In this document: positions 304 through 38,400 of the stretch, one piece after another
Numbering within the stretch: position 1 is the first letter of the stretch
Layout of the letters: each line of letters begins with the position of its first letter
Virus record (IMG/VR): IMGVR_UViG_2912838376_000002
Coordinates: 180,830-244,829 of that record
Reading direction: 5' to 3' (one strand)
Length of the DNA stretch: 64,000 nt
Source: a virus
Lineage: Duplodnaviria; Caudoviricetes
The notes under the pieces: model-generated
What the model saw: only the letters and a program-made list of their open reading frames with translations
Told to the model about the DNA's origin: nothing
Database searches by the model: none
Translations under genes and position numbers: made by a program

Positions 304-333
304 AAAAAAGAGAAAAGGGGATGCCTTCTCTCT
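304..333 (-). terminator. intrinsic terminator after the Q-rich gene
   Basis: AGAGAGAAGG/CCTTTTCTCT stem followed by a T-run on the minus strand. Confidence 0.6.
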
Positions 334-1016
334 TAGATTGGTAACTCATCTTCTTTAATTTGTGGTTCAACTTTATCTCCTGTTTCAACTGGTTGCTCTT
401 CTTGAGCAGGCTGTACAGGTTGTTGTTGCTCCATATTTTGAGGTGCAGGTGGCGTATAAGCAGGAGCTTGTTGACCAAACTGCGGGAACTGCATTGGTTG
501 CTGTTGCATAGGCATTTGCTGTTGCGGTTGCATACCAAATTGTTGTTGAGGTTGTTGCATTCCGAATTGTTGCTGTGGCATTTGTTGTTGCATAGGAACT
601 TGTCCTGTCAACATCGCTTCAGCAAAACGAAGAATTTGAGCTTTAACTTGTGGAGTTAAGTTAATGTGCTCCCAATAGTTCTTCTGTCCTGATTGTGCAT
701 CTACTCCATTTTCAGTTGAGATAGTCTGTACGAATGGTGCTTGTGTACGAGGACTCATACGAACTTGGAATGAAATACTACCAATAACAGAACGCAATAA
801 ACCATTGAACAAGATACCATGTGGCACTTGGTTAGCAGATGCAGGTTTTAATGAGATATTCTCAATACCTAACTGCATATTGCTTGGTGCATTCGTTACA
901 CCATACAGATAACTACTATTTTGACGATACCAGAACGGGTCAGACTGTTTCTGTTGCTGTTGACCAAATTGTGGTTGTTGTCCATATTGCGGTTGTGCAA
1001 ATTGTTGAGTTGTCAT
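333..1016 (-). CDS. Q-rich putative single-stranded nucleic-acid-binding protein (SpoVG/PC4-like core, acidic C-tail)
   Basis: Start at 1016 has a GGAGAG RBS; the core pattern (IENISL..., PFVQTIS..G..NYWEHINLTPQVKAQIL) resembles SpoVG; Q/P-rich linkers; SSB-like tail KEDELPI; lies near the helicase. Confidence 0.55.
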   Translation of the reverse strand: MTTQQFAQPQYGQQPQFGQQQQKQSDPFWYRQNSSYLYGVTNAPSNMQLGIENISLKPASANQVPHGILFNGLLRSVIGSISFQVRMSPRTQAPFVQTISTENGVDAQSGQKNYWEHINLTPQVKAQILRFAEAMLTGQVPMQQQMPQQQFGMQQPQQQFGMQPQQQMPMQQQPMQFPQFGQQAPAYTPPAPQNMEQQQPVQPAQEEQPVETGDKVEPQIKEDELPI

Positions 1017-1055
1017 AATAAAATCTCTCCATTTCATAATTAAAATTTTTAAATC

Positions 1056-1410
1056 AAAAAAGGTAGGGGAGTTAGCCCCTTAAGTAGTGCACTTAAACTT
1101 TTACCTACTCTATATTTAATTAGAGGAATTATTACCTCAAGAAAGGTAAAGGAGTTATCCTTTTGGGTACAGAACCAAACGCCCAGTTCTATATCCGAAC
1201 TATTCTTTACATCACTTTCGGATAGGGCGTTAGCCCCTATCCATTACGAGGGCACGTCCAGTTAAAGATTTCCGCTCTACATTTCATAGGCGGAAGTATA
1301 GGCGTTAGCCTGAACGTTAGTGAGGGTGCGTTAGCACCTATACGGTTGACCAATGCGTTAGCAGTGGGCAACAGCCCCGGCCGAAGGCCCGGGTAAATCC
1401 CGTCCTTATA
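1056..1410 (-). ncRNA. candidate structured non-coding RNA with seven UAAC-loop hairpins
   Basis: GC-rich intergenic region between helicase and SSB-like genes; GTTA loops (+ coordinates) at 1071, 1154, 1229, 1304, 1316, 1330, 1357, each closed by complementary arms; ends in a hairpin plus U6 on the minus strand. Confidence 0.65.
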
Positions 1411-1438
1411 TCTACGTTCTTTATATAAACGCACATAT

Positions 1439-1470
1439 AAAAACAGGAGCAGGGAAGAACCCCACTCCTA
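1439..1470 (-). terminator. intrinsic terminator after the helicase
   Basis: AGGAGTGGGG-TTCTT-CCCTGCTCCT stem-loop followed by GTTTTT. Confidence 0.7.
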
Positions 1471-1474
1471 TAAA

Positions 1475-2872
1475 TCATCTTACAATTACTAAGTTTTCTA
1501 CTGCTCGTGTAACTACAGTGTATAACCATCTGTTAGCATTCTTATATCCATCAACTCCACGATTAAATACTCCACTTTCATTAATTACATATACAGTCTT
1601 CCATTGTGAACCTTGAGATGAATGTCCAGTAATAACATATCCAAATTGAACTTCTACACCTATTGGAATCTCACGTTTTCCTTGAACTCTAAGCTCCTTG
1701 TTCTTCTTACGAATCTCAGAAGCTGTCTTTCTTTCAAACAATACATCCTCGTTTACTTCAATGTAACGATGCCCATCGAATGCTTCAGGAGTAAACTTGA
1801 ACTTGATATTTCCATTGTTTAGTTTCTTAATTTCAGATACTGTGCCACGCATACCGTTAGTTACTTGAATTTCACCATTGTTACCACCATCAATATTCTC
1901 TTTGATTACAACAGTTTCACCATCCATAAGAACTGGTTCATTGAAGCCAAGGTGTGAACGAATAGCTTGGTTTAGACTTTGACGAGTCTTATTCATACCA
2001 GCAATCACAACACCACCATTAGCAACTACCTTTGCATATTGGGCAACAGATACTCTACTGCGGTTAACAACAAATACTTTCCCACCAATGTTCTGATCTC
2101 TGTTAGGGAAGATGTAGGGTGTTCCATTTTCTGTAGCCTGACGAATAGCCATTGATAAAGCAACAATTGGATTATCTGCAGCTTGGCGTAATACTTCAGT
2201 AAGGATTGCATCTGGATTAACAAAGAAGTACTCTTCATCTTTAACAGGAGGTAACTGACCAGGATCTCCAACGATTAATACTTTGCATCCAGCTTTCTTA
2301 GCCATAGGAAGAATTTCCTCTGCCATACGTCTACCTGTCATAGAGAACTCATCACCAATGATTAGTCTTACACCGTATAAGTTTTCTGCAGAAGGAACAA
2401 AGCGAGTACGTCCATCTTTCATTAACTCAGGTACAAAGAATAGGCGATGTAGAGTAGAACAAGAATATCCAGGTGTCTTTTCTTTTAATACAAGTGAAGC
2501 AGTACCAGTTGGTGCACACATACGAACTTGGTCCGCTCTAATTCCAAGCTCCTCTAATATAAAATCAACAACAGTAGATTTACCTACACCAGCGAATCCT
2601 GCTAATTCAAACTTTCCATAACCATGAGTAGTAGAGTACCATCTCTTAATCTTGCTAACTACCGATTGTTGACTAGGTGTTAATACAATATCTCTTTTCT
2701 TCTTGCGTTTATTTGGTTGAACCGGTTCAGTAGTTTGATCTACATTGAATACAGGTTTAGGGCTATCTATAATATCTTCTGCTACAGTTACAGCATCAAC
2801 GGGATTAGTAACTGGCTTTTCCTTCTTTGTGTTTAAGTGTTTAATTAATTGGTTTGTTGTCATAATAGTCAT
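1475..2872 (-). CDS. SF1B (Dda/RecD-like) 5'-3' DNA helicase
   Basis: Walker A GFAGVGKS, APTG, DEFSM, GDPGQLPPV, LRQA, YVITGHSSQGSQW, YTVVTRA. Confidence 0.9.
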   Translation of the reverse strand: MTIMTTNQLIKHLNTKKEKPVTNPVDAVTVAEDIIDSPKPVFNVDQTTEPVQPNKRKKKRDIVLTPSQQSVVSKIKRWYSTTHGYGKFELAGFAGVGKSTVVDFILEELGIRADQVRMCAPTGTASLVLKEKTPGYSCSTLHRLFFVPELMKDGRTRFVPSAENLYGVRLIIGDEFSMTGRRMAEEILPMAKKAGCKVLIVGDPGQLPPVKDEEYFFVNPDAILTEVLRQAADNPIVALSMAIRQATENGTPYIFPNRDQNIGGKVFVVNRSRVSVAQYAKVVANGGVVIAGMNKTRQSLNQAIRSHLGFNEPVLMDGETVVIKENIDGGNNGEIQVTNGMRGTVSEIKKLNNGNIKFKFTPEAFDGHRYIEVNEDVLFERKTASEIRKKNKELRVQGKREIPIGVEVQFGYVITGHSSQGSQWKTVYVINESGVFNRGVDGYKNANRWLYTVVTRAVENLVIVR

Positions 2873-3889: not shown

Positions 3890-6800
3890 TTAGAAGCGAA
3901 CGATTGCAGTCGTTCCTTCTTCGCCAAATGCGATTTCTGTAACAGGGATTTCGTAGATACCAGCCATGCTGAAGTTTGTTGGAGCAAACCCCATGTATGC
4001 TGCATCTTCACGAGTAACTGTCATAGCGTCAGTAACTTGTGCATCTTTGTTTAAGAAGTACATTACAAGGCGAACAGAGTCTTGCTGTTGTTCTGGTTTA
4101 ATCGCAACTCGCACGTTACGGTTAACAGAAACAGTTTTATTCGCTACTTTTGCAACCGGGTTCATAACACGAACTTTCACTTGGTTAGAAACTGCAGTTG
4201 GAGCTGCAACTTTCTCAACTAAGCTAGATTGTAAAAGAGTGAATGTAATATCTTGTGGAACGAAATAAGTCTCAGAAACTCGGCCAGAGATTAAAGAGTT
4301 CATTTCTTCCGCAAATACTTCGAATGGTAAAGCAATGAATCCGTTAGATGCTACGAAACGATATTCGCGGCCATCTTTACGGTAAGCAGCTTTACCATTT
4401 GTTTTTGCTTCATTAACTAATAGGTATAGAGCACCAACTAATTGACGAACATCTAAACCTAATTCTTTTGCAGTTGCATACATTTCTTTACGAAGTTCTG
4501 CTTTGTATAGGTCACGAGCCATTTTGTATTGAGATAATGTAGCATCGTAGTTAGCACGGATCTTAGCAGTCTTCTTCGCTTTAGTTAGAGATTGCATGTT
4601 TTTCTTACGGAATACACCAGCTTCTTTAAGCTCAGCTTCAGCTTGCATCATGAAGTCTTTCTCAGCAGCCGCGCGAACATTCTCTTTTTGAGTGTAAGCA
4701 TTGTATAGGTTAGCAACATAGTACTTCACTGCATCAATTGATTGTGGAGCAACTTCCATGTGTGTAGCAATACGAGTACGAATCTCATTCTTAGCAGTAT
4801 TGCTGTGACCTGTTTGGAACTTCTCACATAATGCTACGATAGCTTCTTCTGCATAGTTGAATACAAACTCATAAGCGCTATCATTGTTAACTACACCAAA
4901 CTCATCTTTCTGAGAAGCTAACCATTGTGGCTTCTTAACTTCGAAACCAGTGATTACAGCTTGACCAGACATTTTATCTTGACGTACAATTGGGCTGAAG
5001 ATGTGAGCGTAAATACCTTTTTCTTCAGCAAGTAATGCAAACTTAGCCTCATTTGTTAATTCTAATTCAGCTTCCTCAAAGAAACGACCTTCGAAGTTAG
5101 CGAATAGTTTGTTGATAAGAGGCATAGATAGGTAAGCACCACCGTGTTTAGGACGGTCAATTTCCCAACGACCAGCAGTACATAAAGCAAGTAAGTCAGC
5201 TTCAACTTCCGCACGTTGAGCAGCATTTAATACTGAACGAGAAAGAAGGTCAGTTAAGATCATTGCACGGTTAGCAATTACACCGATTAAGCTTGCTTCA
5301 ATTGTATCAACAGTGATTTGTTGAGATAGACCAGCAACTACTTCTAAGAAATCGTGACGGCGAGCAGTACCATTCTCACCTTTTAATTCTTCTGGATTGA
5401 AGATTACATTGTTACCTTGAACGATAAATCCATTTACTTCTTTAGCTTCTGGTTTAGTTTCTTTAGCTTTAGCAGCTGCAGTTACATAAGTAGGACAACC
5501 TGTACCGAATTCAACAGCAACACCATTCTCGTATTTAACATAAGCATCAACGAATGGAAGTACAGCTTGATTACCGTATAATTCAACTTCTTTACGGATA
5601 CGAGCATTAACCATTAACTCATCAAAGATAATGATTGAAGTATCACCATCATGGTCAGCACCAGCTTGTTGTGCAACAACCCAAGAGAAAGCATCGAAGA
5701 ACGTAATACCTTGCCATAAACCTTGTTCAACGAACTCAGCATACTCTGGAGATTGAACAGCAGTTACAACTGGAATCTCATGAGTAACTGTAACAGGGAA
5801 ACGAACAGATAATGCTTTACCAGTTTCTAAGAAGAACTTGTCATCTTTCTTAGATGGAGCAACTACTTCATAAGCACCTAATACAGCATCTTCTTTAGTT
5901 GCAGTGTAACGACCATCTTTCGCAGCATTGTAGATAGCGAATACATCTGTGAACATATAACGAGTACGAGCTTGAGTAGTGAATAGTTTAGAATCTAATA
6001 ATTTGTTAAGCTTCTTAACTCCTAAACCAACAATCTCATCTTTAATGTATTGCTCATCAAGAATGTCACCAAACTCTTGAGCAAGACGTACATAATCAAC
6101 CGCCGCAAATTCTGTTTCTGCTTCTTCTTCAGCAGCATTAAGCATTGTTAAGATATCAGAAGTCATTTTCTCTTCGATAGAATTCTTCACGAAATCAACG
6201 CTGTTTGTAACACCTTGTTTTAATTCTTCAACAGATAATCCCATTTGTTGTGTAGCTTGAGATGCAACCCAGATACCGTCGTTACCATCTTTACGTTGTC
6301 CAACTACGAATAATTGGAATCCGTTTTCTTGGATGTCAGCTAAGATATCTTCTGATTTCACCATACCATCAGTTAAGATGATATCAGCATTGAATAATTC
6401 ACAGATTGGGTTGAACTCGAATGAAGCACCTTTAACTGCGTTAGAGATACGTAATTGGAATGCATCAAAGCTATTGATTACTCCTGCAGAACGTAAACCT
6501 TCAGTAACGCGTCGGTTGTGCCATCCTTGTCCATCTGTAAGGTTACGGAATAGAAGATCTTTAACAGCATCTTTGTTATCCCAGTTATTGAACTTCTCAA
6601 CACCTACAAATGCATTGTCTTTATTTAATACGTTTAACATGAAGTCTTGATCCATTGCGATTTGAGCAGTGAAATCATCAACTAAAGCGATTGTGATTTT
6701 CTCACCATCGTTATTTGTTACTACGATGTAAGCTGGTTTAATTTCACCAATTACATTACGAGTTCCAGCAGGGAAGAACTCAACTGTGTGGTTGTGGCTG

Positions 6801-8062
6801 AATGTGCTTAGTAAACCTTTATCAGCTTTAAGACCATTAGAACCTGCTAACATGAAACGTTTGTAAGACTTAGCAACATCCATTACATTGTATCCAGTTG
6901 CTTCACCATTTAATTTGTGCTTTTTACCATAAGCGCGCTCATCTTGACCAGTTCCTAAGAAGTAAGTAATTACATCTTCTAGAGTTTTGAAACCAACAGC
7001 ACCATTAGAACGAGCTTGAGACATTGATTTAGCATATGTTTTGTAAGAGAATGTTTCTTCTTCAGATACAACAGAACCAATTTCTAATTGACCATCTTCA
7101 CGGTGTAATACAGATACCTCAGAGAATACCGCTTTTAATACCGCGCCGTTTACTTCTTCACCAAATGGTAGAGAAGCAGATCCGTCAAATGTACACATTT
7201 CATCAAGAACAACTGCTTTTTGTGGTTCTTCAATACGTAGAGTCATACCATCTTTGCTGTACTCTTTAACAACATTGATTGTTTGAGTCTTTTTACCTTT
7301 AGCCATTGCGAAACGGTAAGCCGCTAAGCTACCAGACATCTTTTGGAATAGAGAGTTAACATTAGTTAGGTTGCTTACATTAGTATCCTTAGCAATGTAG
7401 AAGCGAACACCATCACGTAGAACTACTTTCTTGTTGTCGTCTTTTCCTACTTGAACCATTACATTCTCCATTAATTCTTCTACATCGAAGTCTACTAATT
7501 TACCTAGTACTTCACCACTAGATACTACATAGATATCACCCATGTTTAATGCTGCCATTAATACAGTCTCACGAGTCTTTTTGCCATGTACTTTAGCCTT
7601 AGCAGTAAGACGGCCTTTTAAGTTTAACTTCTCTAATGCTTTGAACTCTGCTGATTCCATGAACTTAGGGAATAGGCCAGGCATAACTACCATTAAGTAA
7701 TCGATTACTTGCTTACCAGTAGCAGAAGAGAACTGGATAGATACTTCAGTACCATCTTCTTTAGTTACTACGAATTTGTTACGACGAGCATCTACAGTTA
7801 ATGCAGTTGCATCAGTACCAATGAATTGTGAGAATAATGGAGCCTTTACACCCATACCGAATAATGCTTTAGCGATTTGTCCTGAAGCGTTTTGTACTAC
7901 CTGTAAGTTACCTGCTGTGAATACTACTGTTTTGTTTGTCATTTTAATCTCTCCTTTAGTTGTGTTGTTTACAGTTGTGTTAGTGTTGTTAGTCATAGTT
8001 GTGTTCTCTCCTTTGATTGTGTTAGTTCCTTGAGTTGTTGTAGCTGTAGTAGTGTTAGTCAT
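3890..8062 (-). CDS. single-chain two-barrel RNA polymerase, YonO/eukaryotic-RdRP-like (probably non-virion)
   Basis: RdRP-family motifs in order: LTDGQG, AFQLRISNAVKG, SVRFP, catalytic GADHDGD (5642-5662), IGVIAN, EIDRPKHG. Confidence 0.85.
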   Translation of the reverse strand: MTNTTTATTTQGTNTIKGENTTMTNNTNTTVNNTTKGEIKMTNKTVVFTAGNLQVVQNASGQIAKALFGMGVKAPLFSQFIGTDATALTVDARRNKFVVTKEDGTEVSIQFSSATGKQVIDYLMVVMPGLFPKFMESAEFKALEKLNLKGRLTAKAKVHGKKTRETVLMAALNMGDIYVVSSGEVLGKLVDFDVEELMENVMVQVGKDDNKKVVLRDGVRFYIAKDTNVSNLTNVNSLFQKMSGSLAAYRFAMAKGKKTQTINVVKEYSKDGMTLRIEEPQKAVVLDEMCTFDGSASLPFGEEVNGAVLKAVFSEVSVLHREDGQLEIGSVVSEEETFSYKTYAKSMSQARSNGAVGFKTLEDVITYFLGTGQDERAYGKKHKLNGEATGYNVMDVAKSYKRFMLAGSNGLKADKGLLSTFSHNHTVEFFPAGTRNVIGEIKPAYIVVTNNDGEKITIALVDDFTAQIAMDQDFMLNVLNKDNAFVGVEKFNNWDNKDAVKDLLFRNLTDGQGWHNRRVTEGLRSAGVINSFDAFQLRISNAVKGASFEFNPICELFNADIILTDGMVKSEDILADIQENGFQLFVVGQRKDGNDGIWVASQATQQMGLSVEELKQGVTNSVDFVKNSIEEKMTSDILTMLNAAEEEAETEFAAVDYVRLAQEFGDILDEQYIKDEIVGLGVKKLNKLLDSKLFTTQARTRYMFTDVFAIYNAAKDGRYTATKEDAVLGAYEVVAPSKKDDKFFLETGKALSVRFPVTVTHEIPVVTAVQSPEYAEFVEQGLWQGITFFDAFSWVVAQQAGADHDGDTSIIIFDELMVNARIRKEVELYGNQAVLPFVDAYVKYENGVAVEFGTGCPTYVTAAAKAKETKPEAKEVNGFIVQGNNVIFNPEELKGENGTARRHDFLEVVAGLSQQITVDTIEASLIGVIANRAMILTDLLSRSVLNAAQRAEVEADLLALCTAGRWEIDRPKHGGAYLSMPLINKLFANFEGRFFEEAELELTNEAKFALLAEEKGIYAHIFSPIVRQDKMSGQAVITGFEVKKPQWLASQKDEFGVVNNDSAYEFVFNYAEEAIVALCEKFQTGHSNTAKNEIRTRIATHMEVAPQSIDAVKYYVANLYNAYTQKENVRAAAEKDFMMQAEAELKEAGVFRKKNMQSLTKAKKTAKIRANYDATLSQYKMARDLYKAELRKEMYATAKELGLDVRQLVGALYLLVNEAKTNGKAAYRKDGREYRFVASNGFIALPFEVFAEEMNSLISGRVSETYFVPQDITFTLLQSSLVEKVAAPTAVSNQVKVRVMNPVAKVANKTVSVNRNVRVAIKPEQQQDSVRLVMYFLNKDAQVTDAMTVTREDAAYMGFAPTNFSMAGIYEIPVTEIAFGEEGTTAIVRF

Positions 8063-8233
8063 GATAATTCCTTTCATATGCTCTCATTTAATTGGTCAGG
8101 AGCTAGACCTATATTTGTGGGTCGGTAGTAGGGGGTGGGCATCGAAAGTCCACCAAGTACAACCCATATATACCACCTTGCGCCTCAAAAAATTTAAAAA
8201 AATCCAGCCTATATAGGGCAACAAGTCAGGAAG

Positions 8234-8289
8234 AAAGAAGGCGGTTATCCGTAGGGCACAGCCCAACAGCGGACGACTACCTTCTTTTT
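8234..8289 (+). terminator. branched hairpin, possibly a bidirectional terminator
   Basis: AAAGAAGG...CCTTCTTT outer stem, TCCG/CGGA inner stem, GGGC-ACA-GCCC sub-hairpin, then a T-run. Confidence 0.45.
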
Positions 8290-8348
8290 ATTTGTGCCTA
8301 CAGTCAGGAATGAGCGAGCCGGTGATGAAGCCAATAGTATTTGATTGA

Positions 8349-35400: not shown

Positions 35401-38400
35401 CGTCGTATTGTTCTTCCATACGCAGCATACCAACAAGCTGTTTACTTTGATGGATTAACAGGAGATACGGTTAGTGATACAGCTGCAGATGCATACGTTA
35501 ATACTCATACAACTCTTCAAAGTATTAAAGAAGGACTTGGTATTAATAAGGCATTACGTCCTTGGGCAAATGTATTTAAAAATGCAGGTGCTGACCAAGT
35601 AGGAGAATGGCTGGGAGTTAAGCAATTAGACTTCTTAACATTTGGCATGTTTAGTGATTTCCGTAGCGGTGAAGACACTAGAGAGTATTATGAATCTGGT
35701 GAAGATGCAATCCGTAAAAATAGATACTGGGGAATCGGTTCTCCTTCTCCTTGGGCTGGTGGAGGAATCGACCACTTTGAAGCCAACTGGTATCGTAAAT
35801 TAAAGTCTGATTACAAATTTACAGACACTATGTATGGTAGTGAAAGTGAATATTGGGCGAATAACTGGATGCCTACCTTAACTCATCCGTTTGCTCCTAT
35901 TAAACACTTCTTAACAGACCCTTATCATTATGAAAATAAACATGAATTAGACAGACCATATGCAATCACTGGTGGTTTTAGTGAACTACAAAACATTCCT
36001 ATCGTAGGTAATCTTATTGATGGTACAGTTGGACGAATCCTAAAACCTCGTAAAGAACACAAGGGGTTAGAAAAAGCGCATGAAGAATACATTTCTTCTA
36101 TTAACCAATACATCCAAGATAAATACAGTCCAGTTAAGGATGGTTCTTATGTAGGTATTTCTGGAACAGGTGCAGTCACGCAGTACAATATGTATGCCGA
36201 TCAAGGGACAGGCGATTACTTTGGAGGTTCAGCAGCTAACTATGGTGCTGATGCTGGTATTGTTAACTACGGTAATGGAATTACACCTGCTTACAAAACA
36301 AACGTTGCTGGTGGTGGAATAGGAGGCCCTGTAGGTGATATAGGAGGCTCAGGTGGAACCGCAGTAGGTGGAAGTCTTATTGGTAGGGGCATGAGTGGTG
36401 CTACAAGAGCTCAAAACATTCTAGCTGAACAAAACTATGCACTTGCTCAAATGGGTGATGGTGTAGAAGCTGGAACAGTTAACAGCTTAATGAAACTTAG
36501 AAACATGGGGATCCCTCAGGATCTTGACAGTATTGGTCAACTTGATAATTTAACAGGTTTGCTTAAAGACGGATTCTACAGTGCATCCGAGTTAGGTGGT
36601 ATCTATGGTTTCTTAACAAAAACAGGAATTGGATATGAAGAGTCATGGCGTGGAACAACACTTGCTCCATCAACATTAATGACTTCTCCAAGTCGTGCTT
36701 TTTGGGATATGAACCTTGGTGGTGCCGGTGGTGCACTATCGGAGATTGGTCGTCGTTATGTTCCTCGTGACCCTAACAAAGATTATTATTCTCCAATTCG
36801 AAATACAATGCCTGAATGGTTGCCAGGTATAGACTCATCAACAGATTTCTTACATGGTGATCCATATACGAAAATACAGAAGGGTGAAATAAGGCTTCCT
36901 GGTAAAGCATATGAAACTCTTTACAAACTTCATCCGGACGGAACTGGTTCTGGTGAATTTGCAAACTATGGTGTGTTTGACCGATTCCGTATCTTAGCAG
37001 ATATCGATCCTGATAGTGAACAGTACAAAGTAGCTAAGCATCAAATCTCATTACTACGTCAATCTGGTGGTCTTACAGAAGATATGGCCAAAGAAGTTGA
37101 GGAGATTAAGCAACAGGTTCACGATAAACAGGACACATATCACTGGTACGATAAGAAGTTTTCAAATGCTGATATCCAAGAGAAGAATGTAACAATCTCT
37201 AAAGTTATCGATGCAAATACGTTCATGGTTCGAGAGTTCGATGCTCCAATTAAATTAGCTGGTATCAAATTAACACAAAAAGATAACCAAGATGTAATTG
37301 ATTGGATGGGACAGTATTTAAAAGTTGGTGCGAGAGTTAAGATTGGTATTGCCGATGATCCTGTTGCACGAATGAATAATGATACATATGGCTCAATGGA
37401 TGCTGTTGTGTACACGAACCAAAATGAAGAAGGTCGTTTCTGGTTTGAGACGAACAAAGGCCAGTCATTAAATGCTCTTATCGCAAACAGAACTTGGAAG
37501 AATCCAGTTCAGATTAAAGATGATGGCAGCCCAACTTCTACAAGAGCTCTTTATTCAAATGACATGGTAACTGTCGGTAAGTATACTGAAATGTTAACGC
37601 ATGATATTCTCCCTAAAATACCTTTCGTCGGAATCTTAGCTGATAAGTTCTTACAGGTACGTACACCGATTGAAAGTTATAAGAGAGATCAAGTATATGG
37701 TTCAGACTGGAGACCTTGGACACAGCCATATGAAGGCTGGATTAAACCAATGGTAAATACGGTTGCTTCTCAAAACCCACTTATTGCAGGTGCAGAAATG
37801 GCAGCCATTGGTCACCTTTGGGGAAAGACAACAAAAGCTAAAGGTTTAGGACGTGTCGCTGGATTTGCTATCGGTGCCGGACTTTCTACTCTTCGTGTAC
37901 TAGATGAAGGAGCAGGAAGAATTCTTCCGGGCTTAGACAACGTTTGGATTCCACAAGAACGTGAAGACGAACGAGAAATCAATCAGTACTTTGACCGTTT
38001 AAAATACGTTAAGTATCGTGGTCTTTACGAGAAAGCTAGCCAACTTGCTAAAAGTGAAGAGGGCGTAGATGTAGAAGAATTCTTTGATGCTGCAGCAGAA
38101 AAAGGGCGAAAAAACAAAGGCTTAAAACGTTACCTAACAGACAAGAAGAAAACATTGTCGTGGGCTAAAAAAATGGGTTATGGTGACACCGAAGCCGTTA
38201 AATCACAAATCCATGAACTCTCTGGCGAAATAGAAGATATTTCGTCTGCAAAAGAAGCCTATCAAGCAGGTAAGTACACATCTTTAGCTATTAAGTATCG
38301 ACAAGAATATGAAGGTACTCTGTATAGTATGGGTGAAACTGGAGCCTCTGATAGAACATCGTTAATGAGAGCCTTAACACCAAAAGAGCGAGAATACATT

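What the first reader, a model, noticed from the sequence alone, without database searches (positions are those of the whole stretch)
1056..1410. Candidate ~360-nt multi-hairpin RNA displaying seven UAAC loops
Seen on the minus (sense) strand: hairpins GGAUAGGGGC-UAAC-GCCCUAUCC (1220-1242), AGGC-UAAC-GCCU (1300-1311), AC-UAAC-GU, GGUGC-UAAC-GCACC (1325-1338), an interrupted 1345-1372 stem with a UAAC loop, AAAGGA-UAAC-UCCUUU (1148-1163), and GGGG-CUAACU-CCCC near a final U6 tract. Three loops sit in a junction closed by GUAUA/UAUAC (1339-1343/1296-1300). Stem sequences vary while the loop is invariant, which points to selection on structure. The region is much more GC-rich than the flanks and has terminators on both sides. 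Inference: a multivalent protein-sponge RNA (CsrB-like logic, or a decoy against an RNA-binding defence/toxin), or a DNA hairpin array read by the phage RNAP, primase or SSB. It matches no RNA family I recognise.
Basis: partly seen in the sequence, partly recalled or inferred. Interest (0 to 1): 0.87.

Follow-up and report, generated by a model that had tools for sequence, protein, structure and literature searches.

The report
UAAC-capped structured RNA in jumbo phage-plasmid
A real, conserved and heavily folded non-coding RNA element of about 400 bases lies between a helicase gene and an SSB-like gene in pBtic235-type Bacillus jumbo phage-plasmids, but its repeated UAAC loops are the hairpin cap this phage group uses on its terminators genome-wide, so they do not by themselves show a protein sponge.

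Summary
On the minus strand, window 1055-1470 is an unannotated 437-nt gap packed with hairpins. It folds far better than shuffles (z -6.6) and has the lowest energy per base of the 32 intergenic gaps tested. No Rfam family matches. The element occurs in six distinct sequences from four clades of Bacillaceae jumbo phage-plasmids, including pBtic235. Helices are kept through compensatory changes: 10 of 49 homologous pairs.

Two results change the interpretation. First, GGC-UAAC-GCC is this phage clade's standard terminator cap. It occurs 14, 10 and 11 times in three genomes, against 0-1 for controls and none in AR9 or BpSp. One clade uses UGAC in two of the hairpins. Second, in the Cytobacillus relative a type III hammerhead ribozyme that passes Rfam's threshold sits exactly where the window has hairpin P0, at the element's 5' boundary.

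Best reading, at moderate confidence: a new structured leader or ncRNA in the helicase-to-SSB-like operon, bounded by two terminators and processed at its 5' end. The sponge idea is neither supported nor excluded. The DNA-hairpin idea is poorly supported. I found no expression data that could show a discrete transcript.

The parts
1475..2872 (-). Upstream gene: Dda/RecD-like SF1 helicase (465 aa)
   Evidence: PHROG 325 Dda-like helicase, E 8e-78. Pfam AAA_30, AAA_19, UvrD_C_2 and PIF1.
1435..1468 (-). T1: intrinsic terminator after the helicase gene. A 9-bp stem GGAGUGGGG/CCCUGCUCC is followed by UGUUUUUAUAU.
   Evidence: Terminator scan. All 9 pairs are kept in 6 of 6 sequences, with 1 compensatory and 2 one-sided changes.
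1403..1443 (-). P0: long hairpin whose 5' strand is the U-tract of T1. It is the positional counterpart of the hammerhead ribozyme found in the Cytobacillus relative. The window copy has no ribozyme core.
   Evidence: 15 pairs are kept in W, L003, L004 and L198, with 2 compensatory changes. Alignment A6. Hammerhead_3 at L219:1708-1766 scores 51.3 bits against a cut-off of 48.5. No hammerhead was found in the window.
1375..1393 (-). P1: CCCGGGCC-UUC-GGCCNGGG. This is the most sequence-conserved helix of the element.
   Evidence: 5 of 8 pairs are invariant in 6 sequences, and the 12-mer GGGCCUUCGGCC is identical in all.
1345..1372 (-). P2: interrupted hairpin GUUG-C-CCA-C-UGC[UAAC]GCA-U-UGG-U-CAAC
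   Evidence: The base helix has 2 compensatory pairs between clades. In L004 and L198 the same helix encloses the three-way junction instead of a simple hairpin.
1296..1343 (-). Three-way junction module. It consists of closing stem GUAUAGG/CCUAUAC, hairpin a (UGC-UAAC-GCA, 1327-1336), hairpin b (CCU..AC-UAAC-GU..AGG, 1309-1325) and single-stranded CUAACG (1303-1308). A mutually exclusive alternative fold has GGUGC/GCACC plus AGGC/GCCU.
   Evidence: The same architecture, with different closing-stem sequences, is seen in L004/L198 (CGCCCA/UGGGCG) and in pAD3 (CCGAGG/CCUUCGG). Hairpin b has 4 compensatory pairs out of 5 (sequences).
1270..1295 (-). P4: hairpin UUCCGC-CUAU..GUAG-A-GCGGAA. It is specific to the window clade.
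   Evidence: 11 pairs, with a G.U to U-A double change between the window and L003.
1254..1264 (-). Conserved, mostly unpaired block UAACUGGACGU
   Evidence: Identical in W, L003, L004 and L198 (the last base of the longer AACUGGACGUG differs in L198). ACUGAACGUG occurs twice in the Cytobacillus copy. The block is not kept in pAD3.
1220..1242 (-). P5: GGAUAG-G-GGC[UAAC]GCCCUAUCC. It carries the genome-wide GGCUAACGCC cap but has no U-tract.
   Evidence: The longest T-run within the next 24 nt is 1.
1166..1196 (-). P6: 10-bp hairpin UAUAGAACUG/UGGUUCUGUA flanked by GG/CC
   Evidence: MFE and MEA folds. 10 pairs are kept in W and L003. The other clades have a different long hairpin at this position.
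1148..1163 (-). P7: AAAGGA[UAAC]UCCUUU followed by UACCUUUCUUGAG. It resembles a weak copy of T2.
   Evidence: 6 pairs. The loop-closing pair is A-U, U-A or C-G in different clades. The loop is UGAC in the Cytobacillus copy.
1080..1140 (-). P8: long-range helix UUGAG/CU(U/C)AA enclosing a variable domain
   Evidence: 5 pairs are kept in W, L003, L004 and L198, with G.U to G-C between W and L003. The helix is extended to 9 or more bp in L004. It is not recovered in pAD3.
1055..1080 (-). T2: intrinsic terminator AGGGG[CUAACU]CCCCU followed by ACCUUUUUUG, about 40 nt upstream of the SSB-like start codon
   Evidence: Terminator scan. 5 of 6 pairs are invariant in 6 sequences. The loop-closing pair is C.U, A-U or C-G. 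The loop is UGAC in the Cytobacillus copy.
333..1016 (-). Downstream gene: 227-aa protein with a folded N-terminal domain, a Q/P/M-rich disordered linker and a conserved acidic (D/E)(D/E)LP(I/V/L) tip. This is an SSB-like architecture. The RBS GGAGAG lies 8 nt upstream of the ATG at 1016.
   Evidence: There is no Pfam or PHROG hit. In the AF2 model only residues about 41-140 are confident. SpoVG-like fold is a weak lead only.

Best explanation
Window 1055-1470 (minus strand) encodes a previously undescribed, highly structured RNA element of pBtic235-type jumbo phage-plasmids of Bacillaceae.

Shown:
- It is a conserved array of helices: T1, P0, P1, P2, a three-way junction, P5, P7 and T2.
- Most helices are capped by UNAC tetraloops, mostly UAAC.
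- It sits between a leaky-looking terminator after the helicase gene and a second terminator just before the SSB-like gene.
- The UAAC cap is the clade's general hairpin cap, not a locus-specific signal.

Inferred:
- The element is transcribed by read-through from the helicase operon, since no sigma-70-type promoter was found on this strand.
- Its 5' end is set by processing at P0. This is self-cleavage by a hammerhead in the Cytobacillus clade. In the window's clade the P0 hairpin occupies the same slot and may be a target for a host RNase.
- Its 3' end is set by T2.
- It acts in cis as a structured leader or 'punctuation' module. In this role it uncouples the upstream mRNA from the downstream one, stabilises the downstream RNA with 5' and 3' hairpins, and meters how much transcription passes T2 into the SSB-like gene.
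- The encoded nucleic-acid-binding protein may feed back on it, in the way T4 gp32 and gp43 regulate their own messages (recalled).
- A terminated, stable RNA of about 350-400 nt would accumulate as a by-product or as a second function.
For: Structure:
- z is -6.6.
- At -0.346 kcal/mol per nt, this is the lowest energy per base among 32 gaps tested on both strands.

Conservation:
- The element is present in 6 distinct sequences of 4 clades and in 8 B. thuringiensis 235-kb plasmids at 95.9% identity.
- The RNA is 78% identical at aligned positions between the window and L004, against 50% at four-fold degenerate sites of the helicase gene.
- Among 49 homologous pairs, 10 show compensatory changes, 4 one-sided changes and 27 are invariant.

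Strand:
- The window's helices hold 11 G.U pairs.
- The sense strand folds to -151 kcal/mol and its complement to -136.
- The U-tracts lie on the sense strand.

Boundaries:
- T1 and T2 are terminator-like.
- A hammerhead (51.3 bits against a cut-off of 48.5, E 3.5e-9) sits between T1 and P1 in L219.
- A second terminator-plus-hammerhead module (40.6 bits, below the cut-off) lies before another gene in pAD3.

Linkage:
- The element is always directly upstream of the SSB-like gene. An extra small ORF separates it from the helicase in two clades.
- No promoter-like site was found on the sense strand of 900-1700, and only about 40 nt separate T2 from the RBS.

Loops as a general cap: plus literature passages.
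Against: - There is no expression evidence. The only RNA-library contigs covering the site are contigs of 3.5-20.7 kb that span everything and cannot show a discrete transcript or an end.
- No antiterminator pairing that competes with T2 and is conserved across clades was found, so conditional termination is conjecture.
- P1 and the block UAACUGGACGU are conserved in sequence beyond what pairing needs. That fits a specific ligand or a trans function as well as a cis role.
- The hammerhead is present in only 1 of 4 clades.
- A phage-specific sigma factor is reported for pBtic235 (passage). It could drive a promoter that the sigma-70 scan cannot see.
- The covariation counts come from manual registers on few sequences, without a statistical test.
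Confidence: 0.4

Rival explanations
1. A trans-acting, stable ncRNA that serves as a multivalent platform or sponge for a phage or host protein that recognises C-UAAC-G-capped hairpins. In its extended form, the same protein acts on the UAAC-capped terminators across the phage genome, and this RNA buffers or concentrates it.
For: - 6-7 UNAC-capped hairpins sit within about 350 nt in every clade.
- The same cap lies on 12 further hairpins in the genome, and it is specific to the clade: 14, 10 and 11 copies against 0 in AR9 and BpSp, with no excess over the control in 23 Bacillales genomes.
- A phage protein that reads such a loop is known: the phi21 N peptide with the boxB CUAACC hexaloop (passage of PMC12550061).
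- The hammerhead and T2 would release a discrete RNA.
- P1 and UAACUGGACGU are conserved in sequence.
Against: - No candidate binding protein was found.
- Two homologous hairpins carry UGAC instead of UAAC in one clade.
- The loop-closing pair varies (A-U, U-A, C-G, C.U).
- Many structured RNAs reuse one stable tetraloop class without being sponges (established knowledge).
- No transcript data exist.
Confidence: 0.28
2. An accreted array of duplicated terminator-type hairpins that works only as a strong insulator or RNA-decay barrier between two transcription units, with no higher-order fold and no ligand.
For: - P5 and the AGGC-UAAC-GCCU hairpin carry the exact terminator cap GGCUAACGCC without U-tracts.
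- P7 with its tail resembles T2.
- Hairpin number and order differ between clades: hairpin then junction in the window, junction then hairpin in L004. The Cytobacillus copy also holds a large extra insertion. This suggests growth by duplication.
Against: - The three-way junction, with a single-stranded CUAACG at the same place, is kept in three clades on unrelated closing stems.
- The long-range helix P8 is kept in two clades.
- Non-hairpin sequence blocks are conserved.
- The region is more conserved than four-fold degenerate sites.
Confidence: 0.17
3. A DNA-level element, such as a replication origin, a single-strand initiation site or a hairpin array read by a polymerase, primase or SSB. 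The hairpins would then form in single-stranded DNA.
For: - It lies in a replication-gene neighbourhood, between a helicase and an SSB-like gene.
- Both strands fold better than shuffles.
Against: - 11 G.U pairs would become A.C mismatches on the other strand.
- The motif is strongly strand-biased and co-oriented with the genes: 12 of 14 copies.
- U-tract terminators and a hammerhead ribozyme bound the element.
- There are no tandem direct repeats or iterons.
Confidence: 0.05

Closest known systems
boxB hairpins of lambdoid nut sites, especially phi21 boxB (CUAACC hexaloop bound by N)
   Same: A phage RNA hairpin whose loop contains UAAC and adopts a GNRA-like (UMAC) fold (passages of PMC12550061). 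T2 in the window has a CUAACU hexaloop. The hairpins sit in operons interrupted by terminators.
   Different: No boxA and no N-like protein were identified. Here the same loop caps the terminators themselves. The element has 6-7 hairpins and a junction, where a nut site has a single hairpin. The host phage is a Bacillaceae jumbo phage-plasmid, not a lambdoid phage.
CsrB/RsmZ-type sponge RNAs
   Same: Many hairpins present the same short loop motif on variable stems.
   Different: The loop motif is UAAC, not GGA. No CsrA-like partner is known. The motif is the genome's general hairpin cap. The element is bounded by a terminator and a processing site inside an operon.
Structured leaders of phage replication genes (T4 gene 32 and gene 43 translational operators; recalled)
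   Same: A structured RNA lies immediately upstream of a nucleic-acid-binding replication protein. The region between T2 and the RBS is AU-rich.
   Different: This element is much larger, at about 400 nt. It ends in an intrinsic terminator and does not overlap the RBS. No binding was tested.
Hammerhead ribozyme type III (Rfam RF00008)
   Same: In the Cytobacillus relative a full hammerhead occupies the slot of hairpin P0. Its stem III uses the U-tract of T1, just as the outer helix of P0 does.
   Different: The window copy lacks CUGAUGA, stem II and GAAAC, and gives no Rfam hit. It is not a ribozyme of this class.
Large ornate phage-associated RNAs (GOLLD, ROOL)
   Same: A large, conserved, phage-borne RNA with many helices and no known function.
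   Different: No Rfam match to either family. This element is smaller and is not next to the tRNA cluster, which lies about 65 kb away.

Membership tests
Any Rfam 15 family | Covariance-model score at or above the family's gathering threshold | tested here: not met
   There were 0 matches in the 64-kb window at gathering thresholds. At E up to 10 on 900-1600 there were only 9 far-sub-threshold matches; the best was mir-1277 at 26 bits against a threshold of 81. L003, L004 and L198 gave none.
Hammerhead ribozyme type III (RF00008) | Conserved core (CUGAUGA, GAAAC, NUH cleavage triplet) with stems I-III | tested here: not met
   For the window there was no match in G000 at E up to 0.01, and the core is absent in P0. 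The Cytobacillus homologue meets the criterion: 51.3 bits against a cut-off of 48.5 at L219:1708-1766.
Intrinsic (factor-independent) terminators (T1 and T2) | G+C-rich hairpin followed directly by a U-tract on the transcribed strand | tested here: met
   Scan hits at 1471-1443 and 1080-1065. There were 4 sites against 0.5 expected in shuffles.
CsrB/RsmZ-like sponge | Repeated (A)GGA motifs in hairpin loops | tested here: not met
   The loops are UAAC or CUAACU.
CsrB/RsmZ-like sponge | Titration of a cognate RNA-binding protein | not testable with these tools
   No partner was identified, and no RNA-protein predictor was available.
nut site (boxA + boxB with N) | boxB hairpin with a GNRA-like loop | tested here: inconclusive
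   UAAC and CUAACU loops are of the UMAC class that phi21 boxB uses. The same loops also cap terminators here.
nut site (boxA + boxB with N) | Conserved boxA, and an arginine-rich N-type antiterminator encoded by the phage | not tested
   A CUUUAAC stretch at 1258-1264 resembles boxA from memory, but it is not kept in L004. No N-like gene was searched for.
tRNA / tmRNA | Cloverleaf or tRNA-like domain detected by ARAGORN | tested here: not met
   0 genes in the window. The phage's 18 tRNAs lie at G000 113-117 kb.
Type III toxin-antitoxin RNA antitoxin | Tandem direct repeats of about 34-45 nt | tested here: not met
   Tandem Repeats Finder returned 0 rows for 1000-1500 at a minimum score of 30.
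SpoVG family (downstream protein) | Pfam PF04026 match or a clear fold match | tested here: inconclusive
   No Pfam hit at E up to 0.01. Atlas structure rows give TM 0.44-0.48 by query. Foldseek found no match at E up to 0.001, and SpoVG chains appear at E about 0.6-0.7. VIA Z is 5.0 for 2i9z_A, below the tool's caution level of 8.

The most novel reading that the evidence does not exclude
In pBtic235-type phages the C-UAAC-G cap may be a lineage-specific RNA 'address label'. A phage-encoded factor would read it on the 3' hairpins of phage transcripts, to control termination, antitermination or 3'-end stability genome-wide. The helicase/SSB-like intergenic RNA, released by ribozyme or RNase processing and carrying 6-7 such caps on a conserved junction scaffold, would be the factor's multivalent hub or sponge. 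Through it, replication-module expression would be coupled to the global state of phage transcription.
Probability: 0.15. Interest if true: 0.85.

Novelty: new variant of a known kind. Interest (0 to 1): 0.55.

Why it matters
pBtic235 is the jumbo prophage-plasmid carried by the B. thuringiensis israelensis cluster (12 strains), the most widely used mosquito biopesticide (abstract listing). Its regulation is little studied.

This work defines a new, conserved structured RNA in its replication module. It also shows that a whole phage lineage has standardised on a UAAC-capped hairpin for its terminators. The decamer GGCTAACGCC occurs about 57 times per Mb in the phage. In 23 Bacillales genomes it is no more frequent than the control. 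A third result is a terminator-plus-hammerhead 'punctuation' module in relatives.

If the element is a leader, it is an unusually large attenuator in front of an SSB-like gene. If the cap is read by a protein, it would be a new RNA recognition code for phage gene control. Both questions can be tested directly with existing strains and published RNA-seq libraries.

Tried and rejected
1. Expression.
- The look-up of sequencing runs listed 24 runs.
- I laid four: X15, X17, X19 and X9. All are Logan contigs. The X15 and X17 contigs (20.7 and 3.5 kb) cover the whole stretch. The two X19 pieces cover only 700-1102 at depth 2. None can show a transcript end, so there is no evidence either way.

2. 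More homologues.
- IMG/VR protein and pattern scans recovered only L003 and L004.
- The metagenome scan recovered L198 and L199, which are identical to each other in this region.
- GTDB genome scans found no relative of the protein. The motif-pattern scans there returned only unrelated or chance matches: 47 loci and 11 loci in unrelated, mostly G+C-rich MAGs.
- The phage collection gave no DNA match and no match to the SSB-like protein or the 1395-aa protein.
- A search of 23 genomes of one Bacillales family for the P1...GCTAACGC pattern gave 0 of 23.

3. The loose pattern GCTAACG x3 in IMG/VR gave 121 loci. None of the 121 holds an array with varied stems; the four with 3 or more UAAC hairpins are tandem repeats.

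4. The 17 IMG/VR hits to AACTGGACGTG-N11-GCTAACGC are a conserved coding region, not this RNA.

5. AR9 and BpSp, whose helicases are 32-34% identical, have no syntenic gap.

6. A promoter motif around TAGATATAAG is not recurrent in the genome. No sigma-70-like promoter was found on the sense strand.

7. I recalled that CUAACG carries a stability bonus in the Turner 1999 tables. The parameter switch in the script changed nothing, so this stays unverified. Under the parameters actually used, UAAC ranks 159 of 256 tetraloops, so the predicted folds are not an artefact of a loop bonus.

8. The first helix table had wrong registers for T1, P0 and T2 and is superseded. In one search the rows 'L-only P6' are one base out of register and should be ignored.

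9. The RNAalifold run on the 4-sequence MAFFT alignment mis-aligned the rearranged 5' half. It also proposed a 5'/3' closing helix built from A-rich and U-rich tracts, which I do not trust.

10. Fold of the downstream protein: no significant match was found, and SpoVG-likeness is only a lead.

Full report
**What the window is.** The window is bases 180,830-244,829 of a 244,829-bp IMG/VR virus record, G000. The finding lies on the minus strand in a 437-nt gap without ORFs (1038-1474).
- Upstream is a Dda/RecD-like helicase gene at 1475-2872 (PHROG 325, E 8e-78).
- Downstream is a 227-aa ORF at 333-1016 with no Pfam or PHROG match.
- Relatives of the downstream protein sit on 220-247-kb contigs of the Bacillus cereus group, Bacillus subtilis, Gottfriedia, Cytobacillus and Priestia (31 proteins at E up to 1e-3 among 40 candidates).
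- The gap itself is 95.9% identical over all 465 query bases to eight 235-kb B. thuringiensis plasmids. One of them is pBTHD789-2 (NC_018509), which is pBtic235, the circular jumbo prophage-plasmid of serovar israelensis (passages of PMC6199540, passages of PMC9700832). In that record the gap carries no listed gene (PLSDB tables omit RNA genes).

**Observation.**
- The sense strand of 1040-1480 contains 8 UAAC and no GUUA.
- Five of the 12 minus-strand CTAACG copies in the window lie within 134 nt, although CTAACK is not enriched window-wide (64 found, 63 expected).
- The RNA fold is -152.6 kcal/mol against -116.8 +/- 5.4 for 100 dinucleotide shuffles (z -6.6).
- I folded 32 of the genome's 35 gaps of 250 nt or more on both strands; the three gaps over 700 nt were skipped. 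This gap has the lowest energy per base (-0.346 kcal/mol/nt), lower than the tRNA clusters.
- With only 20-25 shuffles per gap, its z-score is not unique. Gaps at G000 161679-161932 and 117651-117904 score as well or better, and 152338-152981 scores within the same range.
- Terminator-like sites flank the element: 4 found against 0.5 expected.
- Under the energy model used, UAAC gets no loop bonus (rank 159 of 256).

**No known family.** Rfam gives nothing at gathering thresholds for the window, for the rest of the genome apart from 17 tRNAs, or for the relatives L003, L004 and L198. A permissive scan of 900-1600 gives only noise. ARAGORN finds no tRNA or tmRNA in the window. There are no tandem repeats.

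**Relatives and structure.** I obtained six distinct copies from four clades:
- the window (W) and L003, whose helicases are 96% identical;
- L004 and L198/L199 (70%);
- B. velezensis pAD3 (V; helicase 62% identical by my alignment);
- Cytobacillus oceanisediminis pN497-ZHONG (O; 57%).

Between W and L004 the RNA is identical at 297 of 380 aligned positions, against 50% identity at 157 four-fold degenerate helicase sites. Global-alignment identity is inflated by gaps, since shuffled controls reach 0.54-0.69, so I treat this as supportive only.

Using manual registers checked by script, the helices shared by all clades are T1, P1, the P2 base, junction hairpins a and b, the P5 core, P7 and T2. 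They comprise 49 pairs: 10 with changes on both sides, 4 one-sided, 27 invariant and 14 with at least one non-pairing cell (leaving out the six closing-stem rows).

The most telling module is a three-way junction. It consists of a closing stem, hairpin a (GC-UAAC-GC), hairpin b (variable stem, UAAC loop) and then a single-stranded CUAACG immediately before the 3' strand of the closing stem. This layout recurs with unrelated closing stems: GUAUAGG/CCUAUAC in W, CGCCCA/UGGGCG in L004 and CCGAGG/CCUUCGG in V. These stems are not homologous column by column, so they show convergence on an architecture, not classical covariation.

In W an alternative fold (GGUGC/GCACC plus AGGC/GCCU) competes with the junction, but it is not available in L004.

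Clade-specific helices are also maintained. P4 shows G.U to U-A between W and L003, and P6 has 10 pairs. Hairpin order differs between clades, and the O copy has a much larger gap than W (955 nt against 437 nt) with a large extra insertion. The element therefore evolves by accretion of hairpins.

The power is low, with four clades and no R-scape run, and the registers are mine.

**RNA, not DNA.** The helices of the W copy contain 11 G.U pairs. The sense strand folds 15 kcal/mol better than its complement. The U-tracts are on the sense strand.

**The loops.** Across G000, UAAC is the commonest tetraloop of G+C-rich hairpins that are followed by a T-run (9 of 86; the next commonest has 4).
- The decamer GGCTAACGCC occurs 14 times in G000 (12 on the gene-sense strand), 10 times in the L003 record (72% complete) and 11 times in the L004 record. 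It is absent from AR9 and BpSp. The reversed-pattern control gives 0-1.
- Of the 12 copies outside the element, 7 are followed by a T-run of 5 or more (9 by a run of 4 or more), and 5 lie within 14 nt of the nearest upstream same-strand ORF end. The two copies inside the element have T-runs of 1 and 2.
- In 23 Bacillales genomes of 3.5-4.9 Mb the decamer occurs 0-12 times per genome, and the control 1-16 times. The B. cereus-group hosts themselves were not tested.
- In O the loops of P7 and T2 are UGAC.
- The pair closing the P7 loop is A-U, U-A or C-G in different clades.
- The literature passages I read say that UMAC loops adopt a GNRA-like fold in ribosomes and in phage boxB RNAs. They cite the CUAACC hexaloop of phi21 boxB bound by the N peptide (PMC12550061). 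They also report UAAC tetraloops in SSU rRNA and a lariat-capping ribozyme (PMC12306022).

The invariant loop is therefore first of all the clade's preferred structural cap. It remains possible that a protein reads it.

**The 5' boundary.** In O, Rfam finds a type III hammerhead at L219:1708-1766, scoring 51.3 bits against a gathering score of 48.5 (E 3.5e-9). It has CUGAUGAG, CGAAAC and a GUC triplet. It sits between T1 and P1, exactly where W, L004 and V have hairpin P0 (alignment A6). Its stem III uses the U-tract of T1, just as the outer helix of P0 does. P0 itself has 15 conserved pairs and 2 compensatory changes but no ribozyme core.

A whole-record search found that one hammerhead in O. 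It also found a sub-threshold hammerhead (40.6 bits) in V, again directly after a terminator, upstream of the homologue of the window's 1395-aa gene. None was found in G000, G001 or G002. These phages thus use a terminator-plus-hammerhead module to cut read-through transcripts. That implies the element is made as RNA with a processed 5' end in at least one clade. Whether P0 is a decayed hammerhead or an RNase site is inference.

**The downstream gene.** Eighteen aligned homologues share three features:
- a conserved N-terminal domain;
- a Q/P/M-rich low-complexity linker;
- a C-terminal (D/E)(D/E)LP(I/V/L) tip, with L and P invariant.

This is the architecture of bacterial SSBs, as I recall it. 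The AF2 model is confident only for residues about 41-140, with a sheet of five strands and a helix. Foldseek finds nothing at E up to 0.001. SpoVG appears as a weak lead in the Atlas (TM 0.47) and in VIA-align (Z 5.0). The element is always directly upstream of this gene, whereas V and O have an extra ORF of about 59 aa between the helicase and T1.

**Mechanism.** I found no sigma-70-like promoter on the sense strand, and only about 40 nt separate T2 from the RBS. The SSB-like gene therefore most likely depends on read-through of T1 and T2. My best reading (confidence 0.4) is a cis-acting structured leader or punctuation module that is processed at P0 and ends at T2. It would set the stability and the amount of downstream message, possibly with feedback from the encoded protein.

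The rivals are a trans-acting multivalent RNA (0.28), a functionless-beyond-insulation hairpin array (0.17) and a DNA-level element (0.05). None of these could be tested against expression data. The only RNA-library material available was long contigs that span the whole region.

**Novelty and verdict.** This is a real feature and a new RNA family candidate, restricted so far to pBtic235-type phage-plasmids. I searched for papers on pBtic235 (12 papers listed; passages of two were read) and on UAAC, UMAC and UNAC loops. Neither search turned up a description of this element. Its functional inference is weakened, though not excluded, by the genome-wide use of the same cap.

Noticed in passing
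G000:C1 117651-117904, 161679-161932 and 152338-152981 (outside the window): Three other intergenic gaps fold far better than shuffles: z -6.8/-5.4, z -9.0/-7.1 and z -5.7 on the minus strand. None has an Rfam match. They may be further structured RNAs or long inverted repeats.
   Followed up: partly
L231:1501-1555 (B. velezensis pAD3, 37927-37981): A sub-threshold type III hammerhead (40.6 bits; cut-off 48.5) sits directly after a terminator and about 110 nt upstream of the homologue of the window's 1395-aa gene. It is a second terminator-plus-hammerhead module in this phage group.
   Followed up: partly
window 8078-8344 (-): The gap upstream of the 1395-aa gene (GC 0.46) holds three TTCCTGACT repeats. 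It also has a leader block, ATATAGGTCTAGCTCCTGACCA...AATGAGAGCA, that is nearly identical in pAD3.
   Followed up: no
window 3890-8077 (-): A 1395-aa ORF has no Pfam or PHROG hit and no tblastn match in 50,697 phage records. It contains a DHDGD motif.
   Followed up: partly
L003:6363-6704 and L004:6565-6924: A short paralogue (113-119 aa) of the N-terminal domain of the SSB-like protein lies about 1 kb downstream of it. It lacks the Q-rich linker and the acidic tip.
   Followed up: no
L218:2247-2420 and L219:1497-1676: pAD3 and pN497-ZHONG carry an extra ORF of about 58-59 aa between the helicase gene and T1. The window clade lacks it.
   Followed up: no
L128, L131, L134, L141 (small IMG/VR contigs): An identical non-coding stretch has a hairpin around AACUGGACGUG, followed by GCGGCGC-UAAC-GCGUCGC. 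It shares two motifs with the element but is probably unrelated.
   Followed up: no
L236:1501-1570 (Bacteroidales MAG): A run of G+C-rich hairpins capped by UUCG and UAAC, with 5 TAAC in 500 nt. It is an unrelated hairpin array that turned up by pattern.
   Followed up: no
L219:2000-2380: The Cytobacillus copy of the element contains an extra structured insertion of about 380 nt with its own terminator-like hairpin. A 105-aa ORF overlaps it but is not annotated in the record. There is no Rfam match.
   Followed up: partly
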